A DNA stretch of 64,000 nucleotides from positions 1,877 to 65,876 of the forward strand of contig JACPHB010000006.1 in assembly GCA_016188835.1 (NCBI GenBank), given 5' to 3'. This DNA comes from Parcubacteria group bacterium (GTDB taxonomy: Bacteria; Patescibacteriota; Minisyncoccia; UBA10092). Numbering within the stretch: position 1 is the stretch's first letter; each line of letters begins with the position of its first letter. A program made the position numbers and the translations under genes. The notes under the pieces were generated by a model that saw only the letters and a list, made by a program, of their open reading frames with translations, was not told the DNA's origin and did no database searches. Below are positions 1,036 through 63,010 of this stretch, piece by piece.

Positions 1036-1542
1036 CTAGGCGCCGTCTCGTGAGAAGCGCCTGAAAGTGAACGTGCCGCTATCGTACTGGTTCCGGTACG
1101 TCCCTTTCAGGGTCAGCGGCCCATCCATCCAAAACTTCATCTCGCTTCCGCCGCCTTCGATGCCGCTCGAGGCGGCATCGATGATCAGATTCCCACTCTC
1201 ATTTACCTTCCCGATGGAAAGCGACGAGAATGCCGGTGCCGGAGGGGCCGGTACCTGGAACATGACTATCATCACAAGATCGTCGGTCACCGTGGTGATG
1301 GCGCGCATCGGCGCGCTATCACCCTTGTCCGACTTCCACTGGCCGGTCCAGGCGCCGGCGAACAACCCGATGTCACTTCCTCCGGCAATTGCCGGAGAGA
1401 CCACAATAATGATGCTGTCGCCCTTACCCGACTTCCACTCGCCGGTCCAGGCGCCGGCGAACAACCCGATGTCACTTCCTCCGGCAATTGCCGGAGAGAC
1501 CACAAGAATGATTGAGAACAGAACCGCGACCATAGTTCTCAT
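1036..1542 (-). CDS. secreted protein with N-terminal signal peptide and two tandem 33-aa repeats (VVSPAIAGGSDIGLFAGAWTGEWKSGKGDS); GC-rich
   Basis: ORF track; hydrophobic N-terminus ending AIAGG; internal exact repeat; about 58% GC versus an AT-rich genome. Confidence 0.6.
   Translation of the reverse strand: MRTMVAVLFSIILVVSPAIAGGSDIGLFAGAWTGEWKSGKGDSIIIVVSPAIAGGSDIGLFAGAWTGQWKSDKGDSAPMRAITTVTDDLVMIVMFQVPAPPAPAFSSLSIGKVNESGNLIIDAASSGIEGGGSEMKFWMDGPLTLKGTYRNQYDSGTFTFRRFSRDGA
1331..1528. repeat. tandem direct repeat 2 x 99 bp (1331-1429, 1430-1528) inside the secreted-protein gene
   Basis: Near-identical 99-nt units seen directly in the sequence; they encode the 33-aa protein repeat. Confidence 0.8.
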
Positions 1543-21146: not shown

Positions 21147-21160
21147 AGTGTATTGATATA

Positions 21161-21300
21161 ACATAGCCAAACATAATTTTCCTCGCGCTCTCGGTCGCCC
21201 AGCGGCTTCCTCGCTGTCCGATGAAAGCGTTTTATTCGCCTTTGGCGAAACCATGCTAAAACGCTTTCATAAGCTTCGGAAAATTACGTTTGGCTATATT
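21161..21300. repeat. structured repeat element copy A (cgctctcggtcgcccagcg..ctcgctgtccgATGAAAGCGTTTTA..TAAAACGCTTTCATaagcttcgg), also present at 35335-35520
   Basis: About 100 nt shared with the 35.3 kb copy; internal 14-bp inverted repeat. Confidence 0.6.
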
Positions 21301-21308
21301 TTATAGAG

Positions 21309-21425
21309 TTGACAATAATATTGCAAAATAAAATTATAGGTGGGGGCGAGCCGTTCGCCGAAGGCGAATGGGCCTGCCTGCCGGCAGGCAGGGCTAAGGA
21401 ATTTTATTTTGCAATATTATTGTCA
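21309..21425. terminator. long palindromic terminator-like element, copy 1: 26-bp perfect IR arms flanking a GC core containing ccgTTCGCCgaagGGCGAAtgg and ggCCTGCCTGCCGGCAGGCAGGgc
   Basis: Perfect inverted repeat ttgacaataatattgcaaaataaaatt / aattttattttgcaatattattgtca; lies 3' of clpC on the minus strand. Confidence 0.6.
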
Positions 21426-23807
21426 TATTAAATTTATTTTATTATTTTTCACGTCCACGATAATATTTTTCTCTTTTCCATTTTTGAGGACAAAATCCGC
21501 CAGAGAATTAATAATCAGTTTATTAATCAAATGTTTTATTTCTCTTGCGCCATTGCGGCTCGAAACGGCTTTGTCGGCGATAAAATTTATTACCGCGGGC
21601 CTTATTTTCAGGCGGCAGTTAATTGAATCATTAGTGAGAATATTTTTAAGTTCAAGCTCGGCAATATACCTCATTTGCTGGCGTCCCAAAGGGTTAAAAA
21701 CCACTATTTCATCAAGGCGCGATAAAAGTTCCGGTATAAAATGGCGGCGCAAGGACTTTAAGCTGGCATTTTTAATTTCATCAAATTTTTCCGCAAACGT
21801 TTTTGAGGCGGCTATAAAACCGAATTTTTTTGCCTCGCGGCTGAATTCTCTTGAGCCGAGGTTGGAGGTTAGAATAACAATGGCGTTTTTAAAATTAGCC
21901 CGTCGGCCGCGATTGTCGGTTAGAACTCCTTCCTCCAAAATTTGGAGCAAAATATTGGCGACTTGGGGGTGCGCTTTTTCTATTTCATCAAAAAGCACTA
22001 CCGAGTGGGGCTCCCTCCGTATTTTTTCGGTTAAATTGCCCGGCTCTTCATAGCCGATGTATCCCGGCGGCGCTCCTATTAATTTAGATATGCTGTGGGG
22101 TTCTGAAAATTCCGACATGTCAATTTTTATTAAAGGCGACCTCAAAATTTCCTTGCTCAAAACTTTTGCCAAATTTGTTTTGCCGACTCCGGTCGGCCCG
22201 ATAAATAAAAATGAACCGAGGGGCTTTTCTCTATTAGATAAGCCGGCGTAAGATCGAGCCAGGGCGGCGGAGAGCGTTTCAATCGCCTCATCCTGTCCGA
22301 TTATATTTTGTTTTAATTTTCGACTGATTTGCTCCGAGCCGAGCTGAGCGGTTGTCTTGCCTGCCTGCGCAGGCAGGCCAAAAACAATATTTGGAATTCC
22401 TGTCATTAAATTCAGTGTCTTAACAACATCTTCTATTTGGAGTTCTAAATCGGTTTTTTCCGTTTCGGTTTCCAAATTTTTCAAAGCGCAGGCCTCGTCG
22501 AGCAGGTCTATCGCTTTATCGGGCAAAAACCTTTCGGTTAAATATTGATTTGACAATTTAACGGCGGCGCTTATGCATTCATTCGAAATTTTTATTTTAT
22601 GGTGATTTTTTAAGGATGGCAAAAGGCCCAGTAGAATTTCTTCGGTTTGGCTTTCTGTCGGTTCGCTAATCATAACCTGCTGGAATCGTCTTTCCAGGCC
22701 GCCGTCTCTTTCCACATATTTTCGCCATTCGGCCAAAGTGGTGGCTCCGATTATTTGTACTTTATTAAGCGACAAGAGCGGCTTAATAATGTTTGAGGCG
22801 TCTAAAGAACCCTGGGCGGCGCCGGCGCCGATAACGGTATGGAATTCATCTATAAAAATTATGGCGTTTTTTTCTTCGGCTTCATATAGCACATCTTTTA
22901 ACCGCTCCTCGAACTCGCCGCGGAAAGTGGCGCCCGAAACGATAGCGCCCAAATCAATCTGAAAAATATTTTTATTCTTTAAATTTTTTGGAACTTCATC
23001 TTTGGCTATTTTTTGCGCCAAACCATATACTATAGCTGTCTTGCCAACACCCGGCTCGCCGATTAGTATTGGATTATTTTTTGTCCTCCGGCTCATTATC
23101 GCGGTCATTCTTTGCATTTCTTTTTTTCTGCCGATTATGGGATCAAATTTTCCGTCTTTAGCCATTGCTACGAGTTCGGCTCCGAAAATTTCAAGTGGCG
23201 CTTTCTCCGGTTCTTCTTCGGATATATTTTTATAAACATCGGCGATCAGTTTATCCAAAATATTCGGGCTATTTTTAGCGGCGGTCACGGGACTGTTAAT
23301 TTTCCCCGAAAGATAAAAAATTTCTTTTAAGTGATTTTCTACATCAACAGCCAGCCGGTGTTTTTGAGCTGAAATCCTGCTTTTAAATTCAGAAATTAAG
23401 CCCCAAAGCAAATGCTCGGTGCCGATGTGCCGGTAACCGTATTTCATTGCTTCTTCGAGTGCCGATGCCAAAACATCGCGGAAAGAAATAACGCTCGGCA
23501 GAGATAAATTTAAGTCATTAATATCCAACCCGTGGTTTTTCAAAATATTGTAAGCCAAACTGCCGCGAGCTTCAAAAACCGCTTTGATTAAATGGCTTCC
23601 GCCAATTTCGCCCCGTAGCTGCGGGGCGGAATTTTCTGCCGCTAAAATGACGCTTTTGGCGCGAGCCGTCAAACGATTCTCAAGAGATGGGGATAACTTC
23701 ATATTTATAATGAATATTTTATGATATAATAAAATTAAATTTAAATTTTGTCTATTTTTATTTATGGCATTGCCTTTTAACATATTCAGCATTGGAAAAG
23801 AACCCAA
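21423..23807 (-). CDS. clpC: ATP-dependent Clp protease ATP-binding subunit (ClpC/ClpB-like, two AAA+ modules, Clp_N repeats)
   Basis: Two Walker A motifs GEPGVGKT and GPTGVGKT; Clp_N N-domain; 794 aa. Confidence 0.85.
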   Translation of the reverse strand: MGSFPMLNMLKGNAINKNRQNLNLILLYHKIFIINMKLSPSLENRLTARAKSVILAAENSAPQLRGEIGGSHLIKAVFEARGSLAYNILKNHGLDINDLNLSLPSVISFRDVLASALEEAMKYGYRHIGTEHLLWGLISEFKSRISAQKHRLAVDVENHLKEIFYLSGKINSPVTAAKNSPNILDKLIADVYKNISEEEPEKAPLEIFGAELVAMAKDGKFDPIIGRKKEMQRMTAIMSRRTKNNPILIGEPGVGKTAIVYGLAQKIAKDEVPKNLKNKNIFQIDLGAIVSGATFRGEFEERLKDVLYEAEEKNAIIFIDEFHTVIGAGAAQGSLDASNIIKPLLSLNKVQIIGATTLAEWRKYVERDGGLERRFQQVMISEPTESQTEEILLGLLPSLKNHHKIKISNECISAAVKLSNQYLTERFLPDKAIDLLDEACALKNLETETEKTDLELQIEDVVKTLNLMTGIPNIVFGLPAQAGKTTAQLGSEQISRKLKQNIIGQDEAIETLSAALARSYAGLSNREKPLGSFLFIGPTGVGKTNLAKVLSKEILRSPLIKIDMSEFSEPHSISKLIGAPPGYIGYEEPGNLTEKIRREPHSVVLFDEIEKAHPQVANILLQILEEGVLTDNRGRRANFKNAIVILTSNLGSREFSREAKKFGFIAASKTFAEKFDEIKNASLKSLRRHFIPELLSRLDEIVVFNPLGRQQMRYIAELELKNILTNDSINCRLKIRPAVINFIADKAVSSRNGAREIKHLINKLIINSLADFVLKNGKEKNIIVDVKNNKINLI

Positions 23808-24861
23808 AAGCTATTTAGGCGTTGATATCGGCACTTTATCAATAAAAATAGTGGAGCTTTCAAGTGAAAACGGCCGGCCAAAACTTCAAAATTATGCCAT
23901 TTTATCGAACTATAATCTGATTGAAAATAAAACTCCAAAAGTATTCGGCGGAGAAGCGTCAATGATGTTAAGACGGATGTTAAAAGAATCGGGCATAGTT
24001 GCGAAAGAAATTAATATGTCGGCGCCGATTTTTTCAAGTTTTCTTACTATTATGGAGTTACCGCCGATGTCAGAATCGGAAGTCGCGAGTGCTATTCAGT
24101 TTGAGGCGAAAAAATACATTCCGGTTCCTCTTGATAGCGTTTTGATTGATTGGTCTTTAATAGGAACCAGCGCCGAAGGCCCCTCGACTACGTTCGGGGC
24201 AGGCCTGCCTGCCGGTCAGGCAGGCAAAATTTTAATTCTTTTAATCGCCATACCCAAGGATTTGGTAAATGAGTACCAATTTATCGCTAGAGAATCCGAT
24301 TTAAAACTTAATAATTTGGAACTAGAAACCACGTCGGCGACTCGCGCCCTTATCGGCAATGATCCGGTCCCGGCGGTGTTAATGGACATGGGTTCGCGAG
24401 ATACTACAATCAGCGTGGTTGATGGCGGATATTTGCGGATCAGCCATTCAATTGAGGCCTCCGGTGAGGATTTAACCAGAGCTTTAGCGAATAGTTTAAA
24501 TATCAGTTGGCGCCGAGCCGAAGAATTAAAAAAAGAACAAGGCCTTAAAGTTATGGATAATAACAATCAAATTAACGATGTTCTTGCGCCTCTTTTAGAC
24601 ACTATTGTTAACGCCGCGAAAAATATTATTGATCTTTATTTTAGTAAAACCAATAAGAAAGTTGAAAAGCTGATTATTTACGGCGGGGCGGCTAAAATGC
24701 CCGGATTTTCGCAGTATCTTGGCAAGGGCCTCGGCATCGACGCCCTTATCGGAAATCCTTTTAGTAAAATCATTTACGATGAAAAATTAAATCCAATCAT
24801 GGAAGAAATAGGTCACGAGTTTACAATAGCGACCGGACTCGCCCTAAAAGCTATACAATAA
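23764..24861 (+). CDS. pilM: type IV pilus assembly protein PilM (actin-like ATPase fold)
   Basis: SYLGVDIGTLSIKIVEL N-terminus and overall PilM architecture; first gene of pilMNO. Confidence 0.85.
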   Translation: MALPFNIFSIGKEPKSYLGVDIGTLSIKIVELSSENGRPKLQNYAILSNYNLIENKTPKVFGGEASMMLRRMLKESGIVAKEINMSAPIFSSFLTIMELPPMSESEVASAIQFEAKKYIPVPLDSVLIDWSLIGTSAEGPSTTFGAGLPAGQAGKILILLIAIPKDLVNEYQFIARESDLKLNNLELETTSATRALIGNDPVPAVLMDMGSRDTTISVVDGGYLRISHSIEASGEDLTRALANSLNISWRRAEELKKEQGLKVMDNNNQINDVLAPLLDTIVNAAKNIIDLYFSKTNKKVEKLIIYGGAAKMPGFSQYLGKGLGIDALIGNPFSKIIYDEKLNPIMEEIGHEFTIATGLALKAIQ

Positions 24862-24862
24862 T

Positions 24863-25393
24863 ATGGTGGAAATTACGCCTCAAAAACCAAAATTAATTTT
24901 ACCAAACTGGTCTTGGCCGCTGTGGCTTTCCCTTGCCCTTTTCTTTTTAAGCGTTTTTGCTTTTGTATTTTTAAAAGTTTATTTTGCCAGAATTCAGGAG
25001 GAAATTGTAAGCATTAATAATCAAATTAAAACCGAGGTCGGCAAAGTAAGCGTTGATGATGAAAACACGGTAATCCGCTTAAGCGATTCTTTAGCCGCTT
25101 TAGACGGCATCGTTTCAAACCACAGTTATTTTTCCAATGTTTTTAGTTTAATCGGCTCTCTCACTTATTCAAAGGCGGTTTTTACCAAATTTGACGCCGA
25201 TCGCGACAACGGCGTCATTAATCTTAGAGGATCGGCTCAGAATTACACGGCATTAGCCAAACAAATGGTTGCTCTCAGAGAAAATGACTACGTCAAGACA
25301 CTGGAAGTTAGAGGAATAAATTTTGGAAGTACGGGATTGGATTTTGATCTGATGCTTGGTATTGATGGTAAAATTTTCATAAAACAGCAATAA
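24863..25393 (+). CDS. pilN: PilN-like pilus assembly protein (single N-terminal TM)
   Basis: Position after pilM; TM plus coiled-coil periplasmic domain. Confidence 0.55.
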   Translation: MVEITPQKPKLILPNWSWPLWLSLALFFLSVFAFVFLKVYFARIQEEIVSINNQIKTEVGKVSVDDENTVIRLSDSLAALDGIVSNHSYFSNVFSLIGSLTYSKAVFTKFDADRDNGVINLRGSAQNYTALAKQMVALRENDYVKTLEVRGINFGSTGLDFDLMLGIDGKIFIKQQ

Positions 25394-25946: not shown

Positions 25947-26294
25947 ATGGTTAACATTTCTCCAACATTGCCGCCATCAGGCACTTTCGGCGCTTTTAAG
26001 CCCCAAGCCCCCCAAAAAAGATCTCTTTTGCCATATTTAGTTATTGGTGCGGTAATTTTAATTTTGGCCGCCGGTTATTATTTTTTTATTTATCAAGGGA
26101 TTGGTTTTTCTCTAGCTACTCCAGTTATTCCGGGGGCTTCTCCTTTAACCTCAATTGAAATTAAAGTAGCTCAATTACCGAGCTTTCAATTTAATGTCTT
26201 TAATAGTTCTCTTTACAAATCGCTTAAAAGCTATGGTGCTCTGCCGGTTGTAGCCGATTCGCTCGGAAGAACAAATCCTTTTATTCCATATTAA
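25947..26294 (+). CDS. small membrane protein in the pilus locus (possible PilP-like), hypothetical
   Basis: TM helix; sits between pilO and pilB. Confidence 0.35.
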   Translation: MVNISPTLPPSGTFGAFKPQAPQKRSLLPYLVIGAVILILAAGYYFFIYQGIGFSLATPVIPGASPLTSIEIKVAQLPSFQFNVFNSSLYKSLKSYGALPVVADSLGRTNPFIPY

Positions 26295-26297
26295 AGC

Positions 26298-27854
26298 ATG
26301 GCGATTGACATAGACAAAAAAATACCGCCTGATGTTCTGGTTCTCATTTCGGAAGAAGCGGCCAGGTATTATAAGATGATCCCGCTCAACCTTTCCGGCA
26401 ATGTTTTAGATGTCGGATTGGTTAATCCGGGTGATGTCAGGGCGCAGGAAGCGCTCAGTTTTTTAACTTCCAGAAACGGCTTGGCGGCCAGAGTTTTTAA
26501 AATCAGCGAAGAAGATTGGCTGGTTTTGATTAAACAATATGCGGGGATTAAAGAGGAAGTAGGAGAGGCGCTGGAGGGCTTAAGAAAAGAACTGGCGGAA
26601 GAAAAACTTTTATTGCCGGAAATACCAAAAAGTAAAAAAGAAGAAGCGGCGCCGATAATAAGAATGATGGAAACGATTTTAAAGCACGGTATTGAATCCA
26701 AGGCCTCAGATATTCACATTGAGCCGACAATGAAAAAATTAAGAGTCCGTTTTCGTCTTGACGGCACATTGCAAACAGTTGTGGTTTTACCGGTAGAAAT
26801 TGCGCCGGCCATTGTGGCGCGAGTAAAAATTCTCTCAAATCTTCAGATTGACGAGACGCGGAGGCCTCAAGACGGCCGTTTTACCACCAAGTTGGGCGAA
26901 AAAGAAGTTGATTTCAGAGTGGCAATTTTGCCAACGGCCAGAGGCGAAAAAGCGGCGCTTAGAATTTTAGATCCCACCATTGGGCTAAGAACATTGCCGG
27001 AACTCGGCATTATCGGCCGCAACTTGGAGGTTGTTGAAAGGGGAATAAAAAAACCTTTTGGCATGGTACTTATGACAGGGCCGACCGGTTCCGGGAAATC
27101 CACGACTATTTACGGGATTCTCCAAATTCTTAATACTGAATTGGTAAATATTGTCAGCTTGGAGGATCCGGTTGAATATTACGTTGATGGCGTAAATCAA
27201 TCGCAAATCAGACCGGAACTCGGCTATACTTTTGCTTCCGGTTTGCGGCAAATTTTGCGCCAGGATCCGAATATTATTGTTGTTGGAGAAATGCGCGACA
27301 GCGAAACCGCCGGGCTTGCGGTGCAATCGGCTTTGACCGGCCACTTAGTTTTATCTACTTTACACACCAATGATGCCATAGGCGTTATTCCTCGCTTGAT
27401 AGATATGGGAGTTGAACCATTTCTTTTACCCTCGGCTTTAAATGTGGCTTTGGCCCAGCGCTTGGTTAAAAGGTTATGCCCCGATTGCAAAAAAGAGACA
27501 GAACCTTCGGAACCGGTGAAAAAAATTATTTTGGAAGCCATAAATTCCATGCCGGAAATAAACCGGCCAAAGATAAAGTCCGACAAATTTCAAATTTACA
27601 AGCCCCAAGGTTGTCCCAAATGCGGCAATAAGGGCACCAAAGGCCGAATTGCGGTTTTTGAAATTTTAGAGGTGACTCCCCAGATTGAAGAAATAATTAT
27701 TTCCGGGCCTACCGAATCAAAAATTTTAGCCGAGGCTAAGAGGCAGGGGATGGTAACAATGTTTCAAGATGGAATTTTAAAGGTTTTAGATGGTATAATT
27801 GGTTTTGAAGAATTAACTCAAGTTGTCAGTGTCAACGCCGAGGAATCAAAATAA
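26298..27854 (+). CDS. pilB: type IV pilus assembly ATPase PilB (GspE family)
   Basis: N-terminal T2SE_N domain; Walker A VLMTGPTGSGKSTT; C-terminal CPDC..CPKC zinc motif. Confidence 0.9.
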   Translation: MAIDIDKKIPPDVLVLISEEAARYYKMIPLNLSGNVLDVGLVNPGDVRAQEALSFLTSRNGLAARVFKISEEDWLVLIKQYAGIKEEVGEALEGLRKELAEEKLLLPEIPKSKKEEAAPIIRMMETILKHGIESKASDIHIEPTMKKLRVRFRLDGTLQTVVVLPVEIAPAIVARVKILSNLQIDETRRPQDGRFTTKLGEKEVDFRVAILPTARGEKAALRILDPTIGLRTLPELGIIGRNLEVVERGIKKPFGMVLMTGPTGSGKSTTIYGILQILNTELVNIVSLEDPVEYYVDGVNQSQIRPELGYTFASGLRQILRQDPNIIVVGEMRDSETAGLAVQSALTGHLVLSTLHTNDAIGVIPRLIDMGVEPFLLPSALNVALAQRLVKRLCPDCKKETEPSEPVKKIILEAINSMPEINRPKIKSDKFQIYKPQGCPKCGNKGTKGRIAVFEILEVTPQIEEIIISGPTESKILAEAKRQGMVTMFQDGILKVLDGIIGFEELTQVVSVNAEESK

Positions 27855-34592: not shown

Positions 34593-35162
34593 ATGATCGA
34601 AAACGAAAATAAATATTTATCGCTTAAAACCGCGGCCGGATTATATGGCTATACCCGGGATCATTTAGGCCTTATGATAAGACAAGGCAAGCTTCAAGGA
34701 CTAAAATTGGGGAGCTATTATGTTACAACGAATGATTGGATGATAGACTACCTAAAAAAATATGCCGATTTGGATCACTCTCATGTTAAAGGTAAATTTT
34801 CAAATAAATTTTTAACACAAGTTTTTAACGCGAAAGAAAATAAAAAAAATAAAGAAAATAAAATTTCTTCCGGTGGTATTAGTGAAGAAAAAAACAAAGC
34901 GCTTCAAAAAAACATTTCAAATAAACTCGAAGACGATTTTTTTGGAAATATAAACAAAGAATTATTGCCTTCTCTGCGAGAATTATCCGCGGCTCAAGTA
35001 AAAACCAGCATCTCTTCTGTTTCTTCTGCTGTAAGCTATATAAATTCTGGCAATCCATATGTAATTTTACCGATAAGACAAATGGAAGAATCGGAGCGAG
35101 AAAATATTCTTAAAAAAATTTCTGATTGCGATAGATCAAAAAACGAACAAGAAGCAGTATAA
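34593..35162 (+). CDS. HTH_17-like (excisionase-type) DNA-binding domain protein; paralogue of the partial gene at 63379
   Basis: N-terminal YLSLKTAAGLYGYTRDHLGLMIRQGKLQGLKLGSYYVTTNDWMIDYLKKY aligns with the 63379 ORF; low-complexity K/N/E-rich tail. Confidence 0.5.
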   Translation: MIENENKYLSLKTAAGLYGYTRDHLGLMIRQGKLQGLKLGSYYVTTNDWMIDYLKKYADLDHSHVKGKFSNKFLTQVFNAKENKKNKENKISSGGISEEKNKALQKNISNKLEDDFFGNINKELLPSLRELSAAQVKTSISSVSSAVSYINSGNPYVILPIRQMEESERENILKKISDCDRSKNEQEAV

Positions 35163-35334
35163 GTGGTCTAAGCGGCAAAAATAATAAATACAACTGAAAT
35201 AATAAAATATATAAAAATTTTTCGGAATACATCCATCAATGAACAAGCCGGAAAATGGCTACCATGGCTAAATTTTATCCGTCCAACCGGCGAATTGCGG
35301 TTATTGCTACGGTAGATTCAAAATAATAAATAAA

Positions 35335-35520
35335 TCATTTTCCTCGCCCCGCATACAACTTGTTGTTGTGCGGGGCTCGCGCTCTCGGTCGCCCAGCGAC
35401 TCCCTCGCTGTCCGATGAAAGCGTTTTATTCAAAATGCAGGTATAATTCCGATCGGAATTAAACATGCATTTTGAAACCATGCTAAAACGCTTTCATAAG
35501 CTTCGGAAAATAATTTATTT
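35335..35520. repeat. structured repeat element copy B (homologous to 21161-21300) with two extra internal hairpin inserts; part of an 866-bp ORF-free island
   Basis: Shared blocks attttcctcgc / cgctctcggtcgcccagcg..ctcgctgtccgatgaaagcgttttattc / aaaccatgctaaaacgctttcataagcttcggaaaat. Confidence 0.6.
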
Positions 35521-36124
35521 GTCATTTCTAGGAACTCTCGGAGCTCTGCGAGCTGGTATCGTTAGAGATTTATCTCTGATGATATTGGTCTCGCCGTAGG
35601 CGAGTCGCAGAGCGAGAGTGAATGCGATTCGCCGCTGGAGCGAAGTGACATGTTTCTAAGAAATGATATTGGCAGGCGAAAAAACACATTTAGTGTTTAT
35701 AAGTTGTTAACAGAATGTTTAAAGATTGTTAAGAAGATGTTATTAAGTCCGACGCAAGGTTGGACTCCGATTCTTACTTTGTGAGACGTCGGAGTTATCC
35801 ACAGATGACGAATTTAATGTAAAATCAAAAACGGTGTCAAGATCAAATTTTAGCGGCAATTTTTGGTTAAATAATATCAAACAAAAATTTTCATAATTTA
35901 AAATAATATATCGCAAATTTTCGGCTTAATAACGAAATTATTTCGCGAGATGCGTTATGCTGGTTGAAGTATTAAATTGATTTTAAATTTTTAATATTTT
36001 CCAATAATTAATTGAAATTATACACAATTTGATTTTGATACTTTTATTAGTTATGATAAATAATCATCTTATGACTAAGAAGAAACATTTATTAAAAGAA
36101 ACTGCCACCGAGCATTATTCCCAC

Positions 36125-36736
36125 ATGAAGTATAAGATTTGCGTTTCGGGGGCGGCGGAGATCGAACATTGTGGCCAAAACGCTCTGGAATTAGCCGAAC
36201 AAATGGGGCGTGAGATTGTGTGCAATAACGGCGTGGTTTTAACGGGCGCCACTACTGGTATTCCTTACTTTGCAGCGCGCGGCGCCAAAGAAGCTGGCGG
36301 GATTTCTATAGGTTTGTCGCCGGCGGCTACAGAGAGAGCTCACGTCAGAAGTTATCATTTGCCCACCGATTTTTTTGATTTGATTATTTATACCGGTTTT
36401 GATTATTCCGGACGCAACCTGCTTCTCACTCGTAGCGCCGATGCCGTAATTTTAATTTGCGGCCGCATGGGCACTTTGAATGAATTTACCATCGCTTTTG
36501 AAGACAAAAAGCCAATCGGAATTCTCGAAGGAACCGGTGGCACTGCCGATATGATAAGAGAGATTGTTAAAAAATCTCATCGTGGTTTCGGAAAAATTGT
36601 TTATGATTCGGATCCTAAACGACTTTTAGAAAAACTTCTGAAGTTAATTAAAAAAGAAAAAGTTGTTCTTGTGAAAGAAGAGTTAAAGAACCATAACGCT
36701 AAACACGGAAAAAATAACAGTTATGGCCGAGAATAA
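36125..36736 (+). CDS. LOG/TIGR00725-family Rossmann-fold nucleotide-binding protein (lysine-decarboxylase-like)
   Basis: KICVSGAAE ... GGISIGL ... PGGTGTLNE-like pattern (GRMGTLNEF); ORF opens at 36029 but the conserved domain starts at the Met at 36125. Confidence 0.6.
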   Translation: MKYKICVSGAAEIEHCGQNALELAEQMGREIVCNNGVVLTGATTGIPYFAARGAKEAGGISIGLSPAATERAHVRSYHLPTDFFDLIIYTGFDYSGRNLLLTRSADAVILICGRMGTLNEFTIAFEDKKPIGILEGTGGTADMIREIVKKSHRGFGKIVYDSDPKRLLEKLLKLIKKEKVVLVKEELKNHNAKHGKNNSYGRE

Positions 36737-38570: not shown

Positions 38571-40328
38571 ATGATCAGCAACCGTGAAATTTCAAAAATA
38601 CTCTACGAAATAGGAGAATATCTTGAAATAAAAGGAGTAATGTTTAAACCTCGGGCTTATGAAAAAGCGGGTTATTCCGTTGAAAATTTAGAAGAGGAGG
38701 TCGCAGAGATTTATAAAAAAAACGGCTTAAAAGCGGTAGAAGACATTCCCGGCATCGGTGTTTCTATAGCTCTTAAAGTTGAAGAACTTTTAAAAACCGG
38801 CCGTTTAAAATATTATGAAAAATTAAAAAAATCTTTTCCGGTTAAAATTGGAGAACTTTCAGCTATTGAAGGCATGGGGCCGAAAATGATTTTTAAGCTT
38901 TACAAGAAACTTAAAATTCGTAGCATAAAAGATTTAGAAAAAGCGGCCGGGGCTGGGAAAATCGCTGTGATTGCCGGTTTTGGGAAAAAAACCGAAGAAA
39001 AGATTTTAAAAGGCATTGAATTTTTAAGAAAATCAGGCGGCCGATTTTTACTTGGTGTTGTTTTGCCGCAAGCCAGATCAATTGAAAATCGTCTTAAAGA
39101 ATTAAAGCATGTAAACAGGGTCGCGATTGCCGGTTCGCTCCGGAGAATGCAGGAAACAATCGGCGACCTTGATTTTTTAGTAACTTCAAAAAAACCGAAA
39201 GAAGTAATGAAATTTTTTGTTTCTATGCCAGAAATATCGCATATTTATTCGCAGGGGCAAACCAAAACAATGGTTCGACTAAAAAGTGGAATTGATGCCG
39301 ACTTGCGAGTTATACCAGATATTAGTTTTGGCGCTGCTTCACAGTATTTTACCGGAGACAAACGCCACAATATAACCATTCGCGCTTTAGCCGAGCGCAA
39401 AGGTTTTAAACTAAACGAATACGGTCTGTGGCGGGGTGAAAAACTTATTGCGGGGGAAACGGAAGAGGAAATTTACAAGTCGCTCGGCATGGTGACACCA
39501 TCGCCGGAAATAAGAAACGATTCTGGAGAAATTCAAGTAGCACTGCAAAATAAACTTCCAAAACTTATCGGATACGGCGATGTGAGAGGGGATTTGCAAG
39601 TTCAAACAAACTGGACCGATGGCGAAAATTCCATTGAGGAAATGGCAGAAAGCGCGAAAAGCGCAGGCTTGGAATATATCGCCATAACTGATCACACCAA
39701 AAGTTTGGCGATGACCGGCGGTGCCGATGAAAAGAAATTATTAAAGCAGATGGCCGAGATTGATCAGTTAAATTCTAAATTTCAAGCTCTAAATTCCAAG
39801 TTCCGAATATTAAAAGGTGCCGAAGTTAATATTTTAAAAGACGGCATGCTCGATATAAAAGATGAGGTTTTGGCAAAACTGGATGTTGTTGGCATAGCGG
39901 TTCATTCACATTTTAATCTTTCTCGGGCTGAACAAACCAAAAGAATTATTAAAGCGATGAAAAACAAAAACGCCGATATATTGTTTCACCCGACCGGCCG
40001 TTTGATCCAAAAACGGGAACCTTACGATGTTGATGTTGAAGAAATCATAAAAGTAGCGAAAGAAACAGGAACGATTTTGGAAATTGATGCCGATCCGTAC
40101 CGTTTGGATTTAAAAGATGAATATATAAGGAAAGCGGTTGCGGCCGGCGTTAAACTGTCTATTAATACCGATGCTCACTCTAAAAATAGTTTTCACTATC
40201 TGGAATTTGGCATTGCCCAGGCGCGCCGCGGCTGGGCGGGTAAAAACGACATTATAAATACTCGGCCATGGCCGGAGATGTTAAAATTATTAAAAACAAA
40301 ACAAAATATAAAAAATAAAATTGCTTAG
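38571..40328 (+). CDS. polX: DNA polymerase X family protein with C-terminal PHP phosphoesterase domain
   Basis: N-terminal HhH/pol-beta-like domain, GDLD-type nucleotidyltransferase region, PHP His-rich motifs (ITDHT, HSHF, NTDAHS). Confidence 0.85.
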   Translation: MISNREISKILYEIGEYLEIKGVMFKPRAYEKAGYSVENLEEEVAEIYKKNGLKAVEDIPGIGVSIALKVEELLKTGRLKYYEKLKKSFPVKIGELSAIEGMGPKMIFKLYKKLKIRSIKDLEKAAGAGKIAVIAGFGKKTEEKILKGIEFLRKSGGRFLLGVVLPQARSIENRLKELKHVNRVAIAGSLRRMQETIGDLDFLVTSKKPKEVMKFFVSMPEISHIYSQGQTKTMVRLKSGIDADLRVIPDISFGAASQYFTGDKRHNITIRALAERKGFKLNEYGLWRGEKLIAGETEEEIYKSLGMVTPSPEIRNDSGEIQVALQNKLPKLIGYGDVRGDLQVQTNWTDGENSIEEMAESAKSAGLEYIAITDHTKSLAMTGGADEKKLLKQMAEIDQLNSKFQALNSKFRILKGAEVNILKDGMLDIKDEVLAKLDVVGIAVHSHFNLSRAEQTKRIIKAMKNKNADILFHPTGRLIQKREPYDVDVEEIIKVAKETGTILEIDADPYRLDLKDEYIRKAVAAGVKLSINTDAHSKNSFHYLEFGIAQARRGWAGKNDIINTRPWPEMLKLLKTKQNIKNKIA

Positions 40329-40385
40329 CCCCACCCCGCCTGCGGCGGGGCGGCTCGCCCCCACCTACAATTTTATTTTTTATAT
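40326..40385 (+). terminator. rho-independent terminator (ccccgcc-tgc-ggcgggg hairpin, then T-rich tail)
   Basis: GC hairpin immediately after the polX stop, followed by ttttatttttt. Confidence 0.55.
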
Positions 40386-40410
40386 TTTGTTTCTTAACAT
40401 TATTATCACC

Positions 40411-40662
40411 ATGATTCATTTTAAGAAAAAAGTTTTTGAAGCGGTTAAAAAAATTCCCCAAGGGAAAACCGCGACTTATAAAGAAGTCGCGGTTTTGGCC
40501 GGCCGACCGCGCGCTTGGCGCGCGGTCGGTAATATTTTAAGCAAGAATTTTAACCCCAAAATTCCTTGCTATCGGGTAATCCGTTCTGATGGCAAAATCG
40601 GCGGCTACAACCGCGGCGTTTCAAATAAGAAGTTACTACTTAAAAAAGAGGGAGCAAAATAA
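40411..40662 (+). CDS. minimal MGMT-family protein (methylated-DNA-protein-cysteine methyltransferase DNA-binding/active-site domain only, 83 aa)
   Basis: TYKEVA..GRPRAWRAVGNIL..NPKIPCYRVIRSDGKIGGY = Ogt C-terminal domain with the PCxRV active-site Cys; the longer ORF from 40321 would run through the upstream terminator. Confidence 0.7.
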   Translation: MIHFKKKVFEAVKKIPQGKTATYKEVAVLAGRPRAWRAVGNILSKNFNPKIPCYRVIRSDGKIGGYNRGVSNKKLLLKKEGAK

Positions 40663-40755
40663 AACCAAGTAAAATTTTTAAAATTGTAGGCGGGGTCGTG
40701 CCGTTCGCCGAAGGCGAATGGGGCTACGACAATTTTAAAAATTTTACTTGGTTTT
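40661..40755. terminator. long palindromic terminator-like element, copy 2: perfect 27-bp IR arms (aaaaccaagtaaaatttttaaaattgt) around the core aggcggggtcgtgccgTTCGCCgaagGGCGAAtggggctacg; the right arm is the 3' end of rplT
   Basis: Perfect inverted repeat; shared core with 21336-21400 and 52598-52638; lies between the convergent MGMT and rplT genes. Confidence 0.65.
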
Positions 40756-41088
40756 ATTTATTATCTCTTTAAAAATTTCCGGATACTCGCGCGCCAATTC
40801 CGATAAAACTTTTCTATCAAGCTCTATATTTGATTTTTTTAAGCCATGCATAAATTTGCTGTAATTTAATCCATGTTCACGGGCGGCGGCGTTGAGCTGG
40901 ATTTGCCACAAGCCTCTTGCGGTTCTTTTTTTAACCCGCCGATCACGATATGCGTGAGTCCACGCGTGAAGCAAAGCTTCTTTAGCAGCCCGTTCTTTTG
41001 ACTTACGGCCCCACTTGAAACCTTTCGTGTATTTTAAAATTTTTTCCCGCCTTTTTAAGGCGATTTTTCCTCGTTTAACTCTAGGCAT
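40744..41088 (-). CDS. rplT: 50S ribosomal protein L20
   Basis: MPRVKRG..KRRE.ILK..KGF.G highly conserved L20 N-terminus. Confidence 0.9.
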   Translation of the reverse strand: MPRVKRGKIALKRREKILKYTKGFKWGRKSKERAAKEALLHAWTHAYRDRRVKKRTARGLWQIQLNAAAREHGLNYSKFMHGLKKSNIELDRKVLSELAREYPEIFKEIINKTK

Positions 41089-41814: not shown

Positions 41815-42016
41815 ATAGAATATTTTGATTAAATTTAATATGCTGAATATTAATTGGTTTCTATAAAAAAGTCAAACATTTGAGAGATTTTTGTTGTGCC
41901 CCTCGACTATCGCTCAGGGCACTCGTCTCAAAACAAAAACCAGAAACAAGTTTCTGGTTTTTGTTTTCGCTGTGGTTTACCACGAGCGAACATTGCCAAA
42001 AGCAATGTGAGTCGAG

Positions 42017-42456
42017 TGGAAGTGGCGAGAGTTGAACTCGCATCTAGAATTTAGCAATTAAACATATCTACAGGCGATAGGCTATTTATTGTTTTAGAAA
42101 TCTTTCTTAAAACAGCCAAAATAAAAGATTCCCGTTTCTTCTTTGGTTCTATCCGAATCGAAGAATTTTCGGATTAAAGCCTAATGGTTGACACCGGTAT
42201 TGTCCTATTAGACATCAGACAGCCGATGCCCTCCTACGTTAAAACTTCGGAGGGTGAAACCCGCTTAAGCAAAAGCGAAAGCAGGAGTTAGATTTGTTTT
42301 GGCAGTTATTTTCTGCTTTGCCCTCCATAGCTTTACGCGAAGGAGGGCAATCTCGGGGATTGTCGCATCCCGCTGAGCGGGACGGAATTTCGAGGTTACG
42401 AGATATCCTCGGCCTGCATATTTAATTTTAAAATTCTATCGAAGCCCATCACCCCC
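42017..42456 (-). ncRNA. ssrA: tmRNA (ssrA): tRNA-like 5' GGGGGUGAUGGGCUUCGA.., 3' GCGAGUUCAACUCUCGC-CACUUCC-A; predicted tag reading frame at 42265-42303 (AKTNLTPAFAFA*)
   Basis: Minus-strand 5' end and T-arm/acceptor 3' end match tmRNA consensus (E. coli GGGGCUGAUUCUGGAUUCGAC.. / GCGGGUUCAACUCCCGCCAGCUCCACCA); AUAACU-GCC resume context like E. coli AUAGUC-GCA; directly adjacent to smpB. Confidence 0.75.
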
Positions 42457-52599: not shown

Positions 52600-52663
52600 G
52601 CGGGGTCGTGCCGTTCGCCGAAGGCGAATGGGGCTACGACAATTTTTAAATTTTATTTTCATC
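52573..52663. terminator. long palindromic terminator-like element, copy 3: the left arm is the last 8 codons of glyQS (gatgaaaataaaattttaaaattgt), the right arm is its inverted copy, around the same GC core
   Basis: Inverted repeat with one indel; core identical to copy 2. Confidence 0.65.
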
Positions 52664-52680
52664 TGAATTCGAACAAATCA

Positions 52681-61153: not shown

Positions 61154-63010
61154 ATGTGCGGGATTATAGGATACATAGGCAAACACAAAGCGACACCTAT
61201 TTTAGTAAATGGGTTAAAACGGTTGGAATACCGCGGTTATGATTCAAGCGGAATTGCCATTTTTAACGACGGTAAAATTTATTTGGCAAAGGCCAAAGGC
61301 AGAATTATCGAATTAGAAAAGAAAACTCCATCAAACTGGGATGGAAACATCGGCATTGCTCATACGCGATGGGCGACTCATGGCGAACCAAACGAGCAAA
61401 ATGCTCATCCTCAAGTTGATTGTTCTGGAAAGATTTTTGTTTGCCACAATGGCATTATTGAAAATTATAAAGAATTAAAAGAAGAACTTATTAAAAACGG
61501 ACATAAGTTTAAATCGGACACAGACACCGAAGTTTTGTCGCATCTTATAGAGAAAAATATGCGATATGGTCCGGAATTGGCAATTGCAAAATCATTAAAA
61601 TTAGTAAAGGGAACATATGGCATTGTTGTTCTTTTCGCCAATTATCCCGATAGAATAATTGCTGCGAGAAATAGCAGCCCCTTGGTTATTGGCATAGGCA
61701 ATGGCGAGCGCCTAATAGCTTCTGACGCTTCAGCAATTTTAAACCGGACACGAAATGTAATTTATATGAATGATGGGGAAATGGTGGTTATCAGAAAAGA
61801 CAACATTAAACTCTTTGGTTTTAATAAAAATCAAGACCCCTCAGCATTTCAGGGTTTAAATATTTCAAAAAGAAAAGAAAAAGTAGAATGGACTATTGAT
61901 AGCGCGCAAAAAAATGGCTATCCGCACTTTATGCTTAAAGAAGTTTTTGAACAGCCAGAATCGTTAACAAATAGTTTGCGCGGGCGAATTATTAAAAATA
62001 ATGGTTTTGCTAAATTAGGCGGTCTCGAAGAAATAAAAAACCGACTTAAAAAAATTGATCGCATTATTATATCAGGTTGCGGTACGGCTTATCTTGCCGG
62101 AGCTATTGGAAAATTAATGATTGAAGAGTTAAGTGGTCTTCCTTGTGAGGTAGAATTGGCTTCCGAATTGCGTTATCGTAATTTACCGGCGAGCAGACAA
62201 AATTTAGCCATGGTAGCCATTTCTCAGTCAGGGGAAACAGCTGATACATTAGCTGCTCTACGGCGTTTTAAAGAAAAAAACATCTTAACGCTCGGAATAG
62301 TAAATGTTGTCGGCTCAACTATCTCGCGAGAAACCGATGCGGGCATTTACAATCATGCCGGACCGGAAATAGGGGTGGCTTCAACCAAAGCCTTTACTTC
62401 ACAACTCGCAGTTTTAGCGCTTTTAGCGTTATTTTTGGGGCGGCAACGGAATCTTTTAAAACTTGATGGTAAAAAAATTGCTGAAGAATTAGCACTACTT
62501 CCGCAGCTTTGTCATCATGTATTAATACATAGTAACAAAATGGCAAAAGCAATAGCGGAAAAATATAAAAATTTTAATAATTTTTTATATATGGGGAGAA
62601 AATATAATTTTCCAACAGCTTTTGAAGGTGCGCTTAAACTAAAAGAAATTTCTTATGCTCATGCAGAAGGATGCGGAGCCGGAGAAATGAAACACGGACC
62701 GATCGCCATGATTGATGAAAATTTCCCGACCATAGCTATTGCTCCGTTGGATAGTGTATATGATAAGATGGCTTCCAACATGGAAGAGATAAAATCAAGA
62801 CATGGAAAAATTATTGCTATAACAACAGAGGGGAACAAAAAAATTAAGCATATCGCGGATGATTGGCTTTACATACCTAAAACTTTAGAAATGTTAACGC
62901 CAATTCTTGCAGTTATCCCATTGCAGTTATTTGCTTATTACATGGGAGTTTCCAGAGGTTTAGATGTAGATAAGCCGCGTAATTTAGCAAAAAGTGTCAC
63001 TGTAGAGTGA
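61154..63010 (+). CDS. glmS: glutamine--fructose-6-phosphate aminotransferase (isomerizing)
   Basis: MCGIIGYIG N-terminal nucleophile Cys; two SIS domains; C-terminal KSVTVE. Confidence 0.9.
   Translation: MCGIIGYIGKHKATPILVNGLKRLEYRGYDSSGIAIFNDGKIYLAKAKGRIIELEKKTPSNWDGNIGIAHTRWATHGEPNEQNAHPQVDCSGKIFVCHNGIIENYKELKEELIKNGHKFKSDTDTEVLSHLIEKNMRYGPELAIAKSLKLVKGTYGIVVLFANYPDRIIAARNSSPLVIGIGNGERLIASDASAILNRTRNVIYMNDGEMVVIRKDNIKLFGFNKNQDPSAFQGLNISKRKEKVEWTIDSAQKNGYPHFMLKEVFEQPESLTNSLRGRIIKNNGFAKLGGLEEIKNRLKKIDRIIISGCGTAYLAGAIGKLMIEELSGLPCEVELASELRYRNLPASRQNLAMVAISQSGETADTLAALRRFKEKNILTLGIVNVVGSTISRETDAGIYNHAGPEIGVASTKAFTSQLAVLALLALFLGRQRNLLKLDGKKIAEELALLPQLCHHVLIHSNKMAKAIAEKYKNFNNFLYMGRKYNFPTAFEGALKLKEISYAHAEGCGAGEMKHGPIAMIDENFPTIAIAPLDSVYDKMASNMEEIKSRHGKIIAITTEGNKKIKHIADDWLYIPKTLEMLTPILAVIPLQLFAYYMGVSRGLDVDKPRNLAKSVTVE

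What the first reader, a model, noticed from the sequence alone, without database searches (positions are those of the whole stretch)
35163..36028. 866-bp ORF-free, highly structured island sharing a repeat element with the comF upstream region
In a genome where most intergenic spacers are under 100 bp, no ORF of 60 aa or more occurs here on either strand. The region contains nested hairpins (ccccgcatacaac..tgtgcgggg; agagatttatctct; ctcgccgtaggcgag; ccgacg..cgtcgg). It also contains an element (35335-35520) homologous to 21161-21300. The differences between the two copies are confined to hairpin loops, which is compensatory-like. Candidates are an unannotated structured ncRNA, a decayed mobile element (the region is bounded by inverted repeats gtcatttctagg / ctaagaaatgat around 35517-35665), or a replication/regulatory locus.
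Basis: seen in the sequence. Interest (0 to 1): 0.6.

Follow-up and report, generated by a model that had tools for sequence, protein, structure and literature searches.

The report
Structured repeat elements in intergenic island
The 866-base gene-free stretch is a conserved non-coding locus of a Parcubacteria (candidate phyla radiation) genome, built around two head-to-head copies of an apparently undescribed, multi-copy, strongly structured repeat element, next to a short conserved motif complementary to the glmS gene.

Summary
35163-36028 has no ORF of 60 aa or more, is the largest intergenic gap in the window (median gap 27 nt), and folds far better than shuffles. It is a mosaic, not one object.

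The block shared with the comF upstream region is a 135-210 nt element, here called E (35318-35530 and 21156-21304, both on the minus strand).
- I found 85 copies in groundwater metagenomes and in MAGs named Parcubacteria, Azambacteria and "Saccharibacteria".
- It folds as a three-way junction with a near-invariant core and a 16-34 bp AU-rich closing helix whose sequence differs between copies.
- Covariation is strong: 95% of cells paired, 28 of 49 pairs with double changes, 0 of 500 shuffles as good.
- G·U outnumbers A·C 92:20, which points to the minus strand as the folded strand.
- E abuts gene 3' ends, is almost never found between divergent genes (1 doubtful case of 58), and is present or absent at orthologous sites.

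It also holds a motif complementary to glmS codons, and DnaA boxes and promoter-like sequences.

It is not an origin, an inverton or an Rfam family. Function is inferred, not shown.

The parts
35163..35253 (+). Left flank: 3' trailer of the last gene of the type IV pilus operon (34593-35162). Conserved in orthologous loci.
   Evidence: aligns at about 69-81% with L112, L089 and L103. The same gene end precedes the island in L024 and L092.
35254..35279 (+). Conserved motif ATGGCTACCATGGCTAAATTTTATCC. It is the reverse complement of glmS codons NLAMVAI at 62196-62222. Candidate antisense seed, or a recombination or relic site.
   Evidence: 27 nt, 96%. (present in window, L112, L103, L089, L024, L092, L126). 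(the glmS site is the longest run of identical nucleotides among three glmS genes). (both internal changes in the L092 motif give G·U pairs with the unchanged glmS site of the same contig).
35318..35530 (-). Element E, copy B (E1 subfamily). Three-way junction with 5' arm 35505-35530 and 3' arm 35318-35343. Enlarged apical hairpin at 35429-35476 and an extra inserted hairpin at about 35347-35379.
   Evidence: covariance model score 100 bits, E = 1e-19.
35521..35667 (+). Element M2, a divergent relative of E lying head-to-head with it. Closing stem GTCATTTCTAGG / CTAAGAAATGAT, inner hairpins 35564-35577 and 35590-35604, and a hairpin with a CGCUGG-type loop at 35633-35651.
   Evidence: plus strand -71.4 kcal/mol, z = -7.1; minus strand -51.6. 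(5 orthologues; conserved, 8 pairs with compensatory change, wobbles on the plus strand). (orthologues).
35659..35692 (+). Tail 'K' (AGAAATGATATTGGCAGGCGAAAAAACACAT). It spans the 3' arm of M2 and a conserved A-rich tail, and moves together with M2 in rearranged relatives.
35694..35745 (.). Conserved roughly 50-nt block TGTTTATA.GTTGTTA.CAGAATGTTTAAAG.TTGTTAAGAAGATG. More conserved than the neighbouring coding DNA in the distant relative L052.
   Evidence: 94% identity in L052, against 67-74% for coding flanks..
35746..35794 (.). Hairpin module (ccgacg...cgtcgg). Present only in some orthologues (window, L112, L092) and replaced in L089 and L103.
35795..35803 (+). Perfect DnaA box TTATCCACA, invariant in the four aligned orthologues and present in L092. 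A second box with one mismatch lies at 36018-36026.
35811..35840 (-). Promoter-like site TTGACA-18-TAAATT pointing leftward towards M2 and E. Both hexamers are invariant in the four close orthologues.
   Evidence: In L092 the -10 hexamer reads TAAAAC. Consensus match only; not evidence of function.
36029..36057 (+). Promoter-like site TTGATT-17-TATGAT, upstream of the SLOG cluster4 (LOG-like) gene that probably starts at 36071.
21156..21304 (-). Element E, copy A (minimal form, 135-nt core). It lies between a D2-type hairpin after the Clp ATPase gene and the comF start (about 21149).
   Evidence: 146 bits, E = 1e-29; -65.1 kcal/mol, z = -9.05.
62196..62222 (+). Site inside glmS (61154-63010) that is complementary to the motif at 35254-35279.

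Best explanation
The island is a conserved non-coding locus of a Parcubacteria-group genome.

SHOWN: layout
- It follows the type IV pilus operon and precedes a SLOG/LOG-like gene and an amino-acid permease gene.
- Its structured core (35318-35692) is two head-to-head members of one superfamily of interspersed structured elements: E on the minus strand and M2 on the plus strand.

SHOWN: properties of E
- E is a 135-210 nt three-way junction.
- P1 is a long AU-rich closing helix that ends in a tandem G·A.
- P2 is a 14-bp helix with a conserved 7-nt bulge (GCAUGGU) and a variable apical hairpin.
- P3 is a hairpin with a tandem G·A and a conserved CGCUGG loop.
- E is multi-copy, folds preferentially on one strand, and sits against gene 3' ends.
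- It is present or absent at orthologous sites, so it is or was mobile.

INFERRED: mode of action
- E-type elements act as single-stranded nucleic acid, most likely RNA.
- They behave like the REP/BIME or ERIC class of extragenic repeats: structured modules at transcript boundaries (termination, processing or stabilisation, or binding of a conserved protein). They are not protein-coding and not replication elements.

INFERRED: the flanks
- The left flank carries a conserved 26-nt stretch that would pair with glmS mRNA if the pilus-operon trailer is transcribed.
- The right flank carries the promoter and DnaA-box region of the downstream genes.
For: Family and distribution:
- 3 relatives in named MAGs and 79 metagenome loci.
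- 85 pattern copies and 58 distinct full-length copies.
- The covariance model recovers these plus diverged subfamilies E2, E3 and Y.

Structure:
- 95.2% of cells paired against 82.7% in shuffles, and against 40-50% when partners are slid.
- 28 of 49 pairs have changes on both sides, in 291 cells; 0 of 500 shuffles reach this.
- P2 is fully compensated between subfamilies.

Strand:
- G·U versus A·C is 92:20, or 58:20 without the one conserved wobble column (p = 2e-5).
- The minimum free energy favours the minus strand for E and the plus strand for M2.

Context:
- Distance to the nearest stop codon clusters around 0.
- Neighbour orientations: 27 co-directional with E antisense, 9 co-directional with E sense, 8 convergent, 1 doubtful divergent.

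Insertion polymorphism:
- The window is empty where L071, L119 and L081 carry E.
- L124 versus L075 shows a direct duplication of about 12 nt flanking E.

Conserved architecture:
- The order of parts recurs in L112, L089, L103, L052, L024 and L092.

No known family or record:
- Rfam, phage and plasmid records, IMG/VR, and the literature all gave nothing.
Against: - There is no expression data, so RNA rather than single-stranded DNA is not proven.
- The strand that folds better (the E strand) is antisense to the flanking genes about 3:1. It has negative local GC skew in 26 of 35 scorable loci. Simple read-through from the upstream gene would therefore usually produce the reverse complement. This argues against a plain cis-acting 3'-UTR role and leaves the source of an E-strand transcript unexplained.
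- No conserved promoter precedes E; the flanks differ between copies.
- The scan found no canonical intrinsic terminator in the region.
- Part of the invariance of the core's 5' side is forced by the 21-mer used to fetch the loci. Diverged subfamilies show that P2 can change.
Confidence: 0.6

Rival explanations
1. E and M2 are genes for free-standing small RNAs. They would be a multi-copy family of about 100-150 nt RNAs made from their own promoters and acting in trans, as an RNP component, a protein sponge or a ribozyme.
For: - Strand-specific wobble bias.
- Unpaired motifs (GAAGCUU, GCAUGGU, CGGACA, loop CGCUGG) and tandem G·A pairs are conserved across subfamilies whose helices have fully covaried.
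- Orthologous copies persist across divergent genomes.
- The orientation is often antisense to neighbours, which read-through cannot explain.
- An invariant leftward promoter-like site at 35840-35811 could drive copy B.
Against: - No conserved promoter lies upstream of the copies.
- In many loci the next gene's start codon is only 6-25 nt from the 5' arm.
- In head-to-head pairs the two 5' ends are 0-60 nt apart, which leaves no room for classical promoters.
- The closing helix covaries, so it must be part of the folded molecule. That rules out a start site inside the arm.
Confidence: 0.22
2. E is a selfish, non-autonomous mobile DNA element. It would be MITE-like, or moved in single-stranded form by an HUH/RAYT-type enzyme. 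Its structure would serve its own propagation, with no host function.
For: - Presence or absence at orthologous sites.
- A direct duplication of about 12 nt at one insertion.
- Logan assemblies of the same organism break at the element.
- Several copies per contig.
- Elements of the same architecture sit in the apex of pre-existing AT-rich hairpins.
- Orientation correlates with GC skew, as for transposons that move as single-stranded DNA.
- G·T and tandem G·A are also stable in DNA hairpins (my own knowledge, not tested here).
Against: - The conservation pattern is the reverse of a MITE: an invariant interior with terminal arms that differ between copies.
- Three of four usable filled/empty pairs show no clear target duplication.
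- Orthologous copies are retained over long divergence, with compensatory evolution in place.
- No transposase-bearing parent was seen in about 600 kb of flanking DNA, though I did not search for one systematically.
- No copy in phage, plasmid or IMG/VR collections.
Confidence: 0.15
3. The block E-M2-K is an invertible switch (inverton). It would toggle expression of the pilus operon trailer or of the downstream genes.
For: The whole block is inverted in L089 and L103 relative to the window, L052 and L092. E and M2 face opposite ways, so an inversion would swap which one is sense to the upstream operon.
Against: - No inverted repeat of 8 nt or more flanks the block in any of the three genomes checked.
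- No recombinase gene is adjacent.
- The distribution fits a single inversion in one lineage: L089, L103 and L112 share the same left junction.
Confidence: 0.02
4. The island is a replication origin or another DnaA-dependent replication element.
For: - An invariant perfect DnaA box at 35795, and a second box with one mismatch at 36018.
- A well-conserved AT-rich stretch lies between them.
Against: - GC skew is positive across all 64 kb, with no sign change at 35-36 kb.
- Genes on both sides run in the same direction.
- There are only two boxes, and four perfect boxes are scattered across the window.
Confidence: 0.01

Closest known systems
REP / BIME elements of enterobacteria and pseudomonads
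   Same: - Multi-copy, extragenic and structured.
- Located at gene 3' ends and between co-directional or convergent genes, rarely between divergent ones.
- Frequently arranged as pairs in opposite orientation: E/M2, E/Y and E2/Y here.
   Different: - REPs are 20-40 nt simple imperfect palindromes with a conserved GTAG head and are tied to RAYT transposases.
- E is a 135-210 nt three-way junction with conserved unpaired motifs and a closing helix of variable sequence.
- No RAYT link was tested.
ERIC (IRU) elements of Enterobacteriaceae
   Same: - Imperfect palindrome of about 127 nt, lying in intergenic regions that are transcribed.
- Conserved core, with extra hairpins inserted at fixed internal positions in some copies. 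Compare copy B with copy A.
- Persistence at orthologous sites, and unknown function.
   Different: - No sequence relation.
- E has a branched fold and strand-biased wobbles.
- E occurs in Parcubacteria with genomes of about 1 Mb (genome size from my own knowledge).
MITEs (for example Correia, RUP, BOX, and Rickettsia RPE)
   Same: - No ORF, 100-300 nt, and AT-rich ends.
- Insertion polymorphism, with one insertion showing a direct target duplication.
- Related GC-rich mini-hairpins appear to insert in frame in GlmS homologues, as Rickettsia RPEs do (comparison from my own knowledge).
   Different: - MITEs keep their terminal inverted repeats and let the interior drift.
- E keeps its interior and lets the arms vary; only the inner TTTTCC/GGAAAA is fixed.
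- No parent transposon was found.
Large or multi-copy structured bacterial ncRNAs in Rfam (OLE, GOLLD, ROOL, HEARO, raiA, 6S, Y RNA)
   Same: A covariation-supported multi-helix fold with conserved junction and loop nucleotides.
   Different: - No Rfam 15 model matches E, E2, Y or M2, even at E-values of 5-10.
- E is dispersed in many copies per genome and in both orientations relative to its neighbours.
RNA-based control of glmS (glmS ribozyme; GlmY/GlmZ sRNAs). Relevant only to the motif at 35254-35279.
   Same: It would be an RNA acting on glmS mRNA. The 26-nt motif is complementary to a nucleotide-frozen site in glmS.
   Different: - The site lies in the middle of the coding sequence (codons 349-356), not in the leader.
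- There is no structural or sequence relation to the ribozyme or to GlmY/GlmZ.
- Expression and effect are untested.

Membership tests
Any Rfam 15 family | Covariance-model score at or above the family's gathering threshold | tested here: not met
   - the whole window gives only tmRNA and one tRNA.
- 35000-36200 at E up to 10 gives only chance miRNA and snoRNA hits far below threshold.
- the same for subfamilies E2 and Y in L058.
REP/BIME | Short (20-40 nt) imperfect palindrome with a conserved GTAG head | tested here: not met
   E is a 135-210 nt three-way junction. Its conserved 5' motif is TTTTCCGAAGC, not GTAG.
REP/BIME | Extragenic, at gene 3' ends, often in inverted pairs | tested here: met
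   - stop-codon distances cluster at 0, with 1 doubtful divergent context of 58.
- head-to-head pairs.
REP/BIME | Associated RAYT (Y1/HUH) transposase in the same genomes | not tested
   I made no systematic protein search of genomes that carry E.
MITE | Conserved terminal inverted repeats shared by all copies | tested here: not met
   Only the inner 6-9 bp are shared. The outer 10-25 bp differ between copies while staying complementary.
MITE | Direct target-site duplication of fixed length | tested here: inconclusive
   - L124 versus L075: duplication of about 12 nt.
- L071 versus the window: possible 6-9 nt duplication.
- L119/L081 versus the window, and L063 versus L122: none visible.
MITE | Presence/absence polymorphism at orthologous sites | tested here: met
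   five filled copies at four sites, each with an orthologous empty site.
Inverton (phase-variable invertible segment) | Flanking inverted repeats and a nearby site-specific recombinase | tested here: not met
   - no inverted repeat of 8 nt or more at the block borders in the window, L089 or L103.
- Neighbouring genes are pilus, SLOG and permease genes.
Bacterial oriC | Cluster of DnaA boxes next to an AT-rich unwinding element, at a GC-skew sign change | tested here: not met
   (no sign change). (one perfect box plus one with a single mismatch in the region).
Canonical intrinsic terminator | GC-rich stem directly followed by a U tract | tested here: not met
   0 sites in 34900-36300, against 1.6 expected. 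The 3' arms of E are U-rich but base-paired.
Trans-acting antisense sRNA (motif at 35254-35279 only) | Extended complementarity to a target mRNA, conserved on both sides | tested here: met
   - 26 of 27 nt complementary.
- The motif is kept in at least 7 loci.
- The target is the longest identical-nucleotide run in glmS.
- The L092 changes preserve wobble pairing.
Trans-acting antisense sRNA (motif at 35254-35279 only) | The motif is transcribed and alters expression of the target | not testable with these tools
   No transcriptome data are available here.

The most novel reading that the evidence does not exclude
E, M2, E2, E3 and Y would form a new class of structured RNA specific to Parcubacteria and related CPR bacteria. 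Its features are a three-way junction, tandem G·A motifs, and invariant GCAUGGU and CGCUGG motifs. It would be made from the strand that is usually antisense to the neighbouring genes, and would work with a dedicated protein or as a catalytic or processing RNA. Separately, the same island would encode a trans-acting antisense regulator of glmS in the trailer of the pilus operon. That would be a third, independent RNA solution to glmS control.
Probability: 0.25. Interest if true: 0.8.

Novelty: new variant of a known kind. Interest (0 to 1): 0.6.

Why it matters
CPR/Patescibacteria have tiny genomes with very short intergenic spacers, and almost nothing is known about their non-coding RNA or repeat content.

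- These genomes still carry many copies of a 135-210 nt element with a near-invariant core and a rigorously covarying fold. That implies either a function worth its cost or an unusually successful parasite of streamlined genomes. Either would be informative.
- The element breaks short-read assemblies of these organisms, so knowing it helps MAG finishing.
- The covariance model built here gives a direct handle for a census, for phylogenetic profiling to find a partner protein, and for mapping metatranscriptomes.
- The glmS-complementary motif, if functional, would make RNA-based regulation in an uncultivated lineage directly testable.

Tried and rejected
Known families and records:
- Rfam at gathering and permissive thresholds found nothing relevant.
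- I considered 6S, SRP, RNase P, Y RNA, hammerhead/twister-type ribozymes, K-turn/box C/D, retron, attC and TIGR-array readings by inspecting motifs. None fits. There is no Rfam support. The tandem G·A in P1 lacks the 3-nt bulge of a K-turn. There is no adjacent RT or Tas-type ORF, and the copies are dispersed, not arrayed.
- IMG/VR, phage and plasmid searches found no copies.
- Literature searches found no description. One search failed on syntax.

Specific readings rejected:
- oriC: rejected on GC skew and box count.
- Inverton: rejected for lack of flanking inverted repeats and because the distribution fits one event.
- Small ORFs: the 23-codon frame that starts at the motif is not conserved as protein. 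The MKAF mini-ORF in P2 is lost in subfamilies E2 and E3.
- Wobble bias as a mutational artefact: cytosine deamination on the sense or leading strand should produce the opposite bias (my reasoning from established knowledge).

Steps that led nowhere:
- My first genome-collection pattern was palindromic and mostly fetched chance terminator hairpins; only 3 of 45 loci were true hits.
- Exact-protein look-ups for the SLOG gene failed for two candidate start codons.
- My first two gene-context scripts were noisy. I replaced them with a greedy gene set.
- I could not pair the L089 motif variant with its own glmS, because no suitable contig is held.

Full report
**1. Observation**

Region 35163-36028 lies between the last ORF of a type IV pilus operon and a SLOG cluster4 (LOG-like) gene followed by an amino-acid permease.
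- The pilus operon carries T2SSF, prepilin peptidase and N-methyl pilin genes; its last ORF is 34593-35162.
- The downstream genes were identified.
- The region has no ORF of 60 aa or more; the longest is 57 aa.
- It is the largest intergenic gap in a window whose median gap is 27 nt.
- The region folds with z = -9.6 on the plus strand and z = -8.2 on the minus strand against dinucleotide shuffles.
- The repeat shared with 21161-21300 is real: 56 nt at 96% and 38 nt at 100%.

**2. Source organism**

The window's GlmS is 100% identical to a protein of a MAG named 'Parcubacteria group bacterium', on a 67,969-nt contig. The nearest named relatives are Candidatus Azambacteria.

**3. The shared block is a widespread element, E**

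How the copies were found:
- A scan of species-representative genomes gave three true relatives. One is in Candidatus Azambacteria GW2011_GWA2_42_9. Two are in MAGs labelled Saccharibacteria.
- A scan of metagenome contigs with an invariant 21-mer gave 79 loci. Many carry Hainich aquifer record names, which I take to be groundwater.
- In total there are 85 pattern matches and 58 distinct full-length copies.

The fold, written on the window's minus strand (derived by hand):
- P1 is an AU-rich closing helix of 16-34 bp. Only its inner TTTTCC/GGAAAA is fixed. It runs through a tandem G·A into two G-C pairs.
- P2 is AUGAAAGCGUUUUA/UAAAACGCUUUCAU, with a conserved 7-nt bulge (GCAUGGU) and an apical hairpin of variable sequence and length.
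- P3 is a hairpin with a tandem G·A, a covarying 7-bp stem and a conserved CGCUGG loop.

Support for the fold on 56 copies:
- 95.2% of cells are paired, against 82.7% in column shuffles and 40-50% when partners are slid.
- 28 of 49 pairs have changes on both sides, in 291 cells.
- 0 of 500 shuffles reach any of the measures.
- The 5' strand of P2 was fixed by my search pattern. However, diverged subfamilies found with the covariance model (E2, E3, Y) replace P2 by fully compensated sequences. They keep the unpaired motifs GAAGCUU, GCAUGGU and CGGACA (Y keeps only related forms of these) and the CGCUGG loop.

Copies in the window:
- Only two true copies occur in the window: 146 and 100 bits.
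- Copy B differs from copy A by an inserted 33-nt hairpin, a larger apical hairpin and entirely different arms.

**4. Which strand folds**
- In the helices, G·U cells outnumber A·C cells 92:20. Without the one conserved wobble column the count is 58:20 (p = 2e-5).
- Deamination bias on the sense or leading strand would give the opposite bias, so I read this as selection for folding of the strand shown (my inference).
- The minimum free energy agrees. Copy A gives -65.1 kcal/mol on the minus strand and -56.4 on the plus strand.

**5. Genomic behaviour of E**

Position and orientation:
- E abuts stop codons; the distances cluster around 0.
- Neighbour orientations are: 27 co-directional with E antisense, 9 co-directional with E sense, 8 convergent, and 1 doubtful divergent case.
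- The E strand has negative local GC skew in 26 loci and positive skew in 9.

Gain and loss:
- The window is empty (TAAagcATG) where L071 has E, between the orthologues of 25947..26294 and 26298..27854.
- The window is also empty (overlapping TTAA stop codons) where L119 and L081 have E, at the comF 3' end.
- L124 compared with L075 shows E flanked by a direct duplication of about 12 nt. The duplication restores an overlapping stop and start codon.
- The other pairs show no clear duplication.

Related observations:
- Public short-read contigs of this organism break at the element.
- A second family (D2) with the same plan, a GC-rich core inside a perfect AT-rich stem, sits at 40657-40759. The orthologous site in L120 has only a short AT-rich hairpin.

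**6. Anatomy of the island**

Orthologous loci from related genomes are L112/L120/L121, L089, L103, L052, L024 and L092. From left to right they show these parts:
- (a) The pilus-gene trailer.
- (b) The motif ATGGCTACCATGGCTAAATTTT (35254-35279).
- (c) E (35318-35530, minus strand).
- (d) M2 (35521-35667, plus strand), with its tail K to 35692.
- (e) A roughly 50-nt block (35694-35745), 94% identical even in L052, whose coding flanks are about 70% identical.
- (f) A hairpin module present only in some genomes (35746-35794).
- (g) About 235 nt of AT-rich sequence at 86% mean column identity. It holds an invariant DnaA box (35795), a leftward promoter-like site (35840-35811) and a second DnaA-like box (36018). 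The promoter-like site for the downstream gene follows at 36029-36057.

M2:
- M2 has the same plan as E: an AU-rich closing stem, a tandem G·A in orthologues, a long helix with a CUGGUA bulge, and a hairpin with a CGCUGG loop.
- It folds much better on the plus strand (-71.4 against -51.6 kcal/mol).
- Five orthologues support the fold.

Pairing and rearrangement:
- Head-to-head pairs recur elsewhere: E/Y in L112 and E2/Y in L058.
- In L089 and L103 the block E-M2-K is inverted.
- No inverted repeat of 8 nt or more flanks the block.
- L089, L103 and L112 share one left junction.
- This therefore looks like one evolutionary inversion, not a switch.

**7. The glmS-complementary motif**
- The motif is the reverse complement of codons NLAMVAI of glmS (61154-63010), just before SQSGETADT.
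- It is kept in at least seven loci, while its surroundings diverge.
- Three glmS genes share only 41% codon identity at conserved residues. Even so, their longest run of identical nucleotides is exactly this site: 24 nt, against 14 for the next longest.
- In L092 the motif has two internal A-to-G changes. Both would give G·U pairs with the unchanged glmS site on the same contig.
- This fits an antisense RNA carried in the pilus-operon trailer.
- A DNA-level role is not excluded. In L093 a glmS pseudogene begins exactly at the motif.

**8. What it is not**
- No Rfam family matches.
- It is not an origin: GC skew is positive throughout.
- There are no matches in phage, plasmid or IMG/VR collections.
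- I found no description in the searchable literature.

**9. Interpretation and limits**

Shown:
- The family exists, and its fold, strand bias, genomic context and insertion polymorphism are as described.
- The island is a mosaic whose architecture is conserved.

Inferred:
- The elements act as RNA at transcript boundaries, in the manner of REP/BIME or ERIC elements.

The main difficulty is that the better-folding strand is usually antisense to its neighbours and has no visible promoter. For that reason a free-standing sRNA family and a selfish element mobilised as single-stranded DNA remain serious rivals. Strand-specific transcript data and a genome-wide census would decide between them.

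Noticed in passing
window 35254-35279 and 62196-62222; L092 and L129 (same contig); L093 1202-1285: A 26-nt motif in the island is antisense to glmS codons 349-356. The glmS site is the longest nucleotide-identical run among three glmS genes. The L092 motif variant keeps pairing through G·U. In L093 a glmS pseudogene begins exactly at the motif.
   Followed up: partly
window 21310-21425, 40299-40392, 40657-40759, 52567-52669: The 'D2' family has a GC-rich core (GTAGGCGGGGTCGTGCCGTTCGCCGAAGGCGAATGGGGCTAC) closed by a perfect 25-31 bp AT-rich stem of site-specific sequence, at gene 3' ends. The orthologue of the 40657 site in L120 has only a short AT-rich hairpin, so the core seems to have entered a pre-existing hairpin apex.
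   Followed up: partly
window 41840-42017: A 177-nt insertion relative to L120, directly at the 3' end of the tmRNA gene (42014-42456, minus strand). It contains a long AT-rich-stemmed hairpin (AAACAAAAACCAGAAAC...).
   Followed up: no
GlmS homologues P0002, P0004, P0012, P0014, P0036 and P0035: Several Parcubacteria GlmS proteins carry in-frame inserts such as FSAKGGSASGGKEK, consistent with GC-rich mini-hairpin elements inserted in coding DNA. P0035 has a 25-residue insert right after NLAMVA, which is at the motif site.
   Followed up: no
L093 2034-2178 and L126 about 4941: In L093 the element E is cut short inside P2 by a sequence starting CAGATCATTTGATCTG. This palindrome also flanks E in L126 and occurs twice in L093. 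It may be the end of another mobile element that targets E.
   Followed up: partly
L071 7530-12273, compared with window 24861-24863: The relative carries about 4.7 kb inserted between the orthologues of two adjacent window genes (23764..24861 and 24863..25393).
   Followed up: no
window 20742, 20954, 31282, 45199: Four copies of the small hairpin AATGTTGGAAACCGAGCTTCCAACATTT (family D5), probably terminator-like.
   Followed up: no
window 1315-1512 and 8127-9377: A tandem 99-nt direct repeat (94% identity) inside ORF-rich sequence, and a 291-nt repeat at 960-nt spacing inside ORF 8043-9998 (75% identity).
   Followed up: no
L092 about 8830-8850 (M2 orthologue) and window 21370-21394: The mini-palindrome CCTGCCTGCCGGCAGGCAGG is inserted in the CGCUGG hairpin of the L092 copy of M2. 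It also occurs next to copy A of E in the window.
   Followed up: no
L001 and L002 (Logan assemblies of the same organism): Public short-read contigs end about 197 nt after the 189-aa gene, at the edge of element E. This is consistent with a repeat that breaks assemblies.
   Followed up: yes
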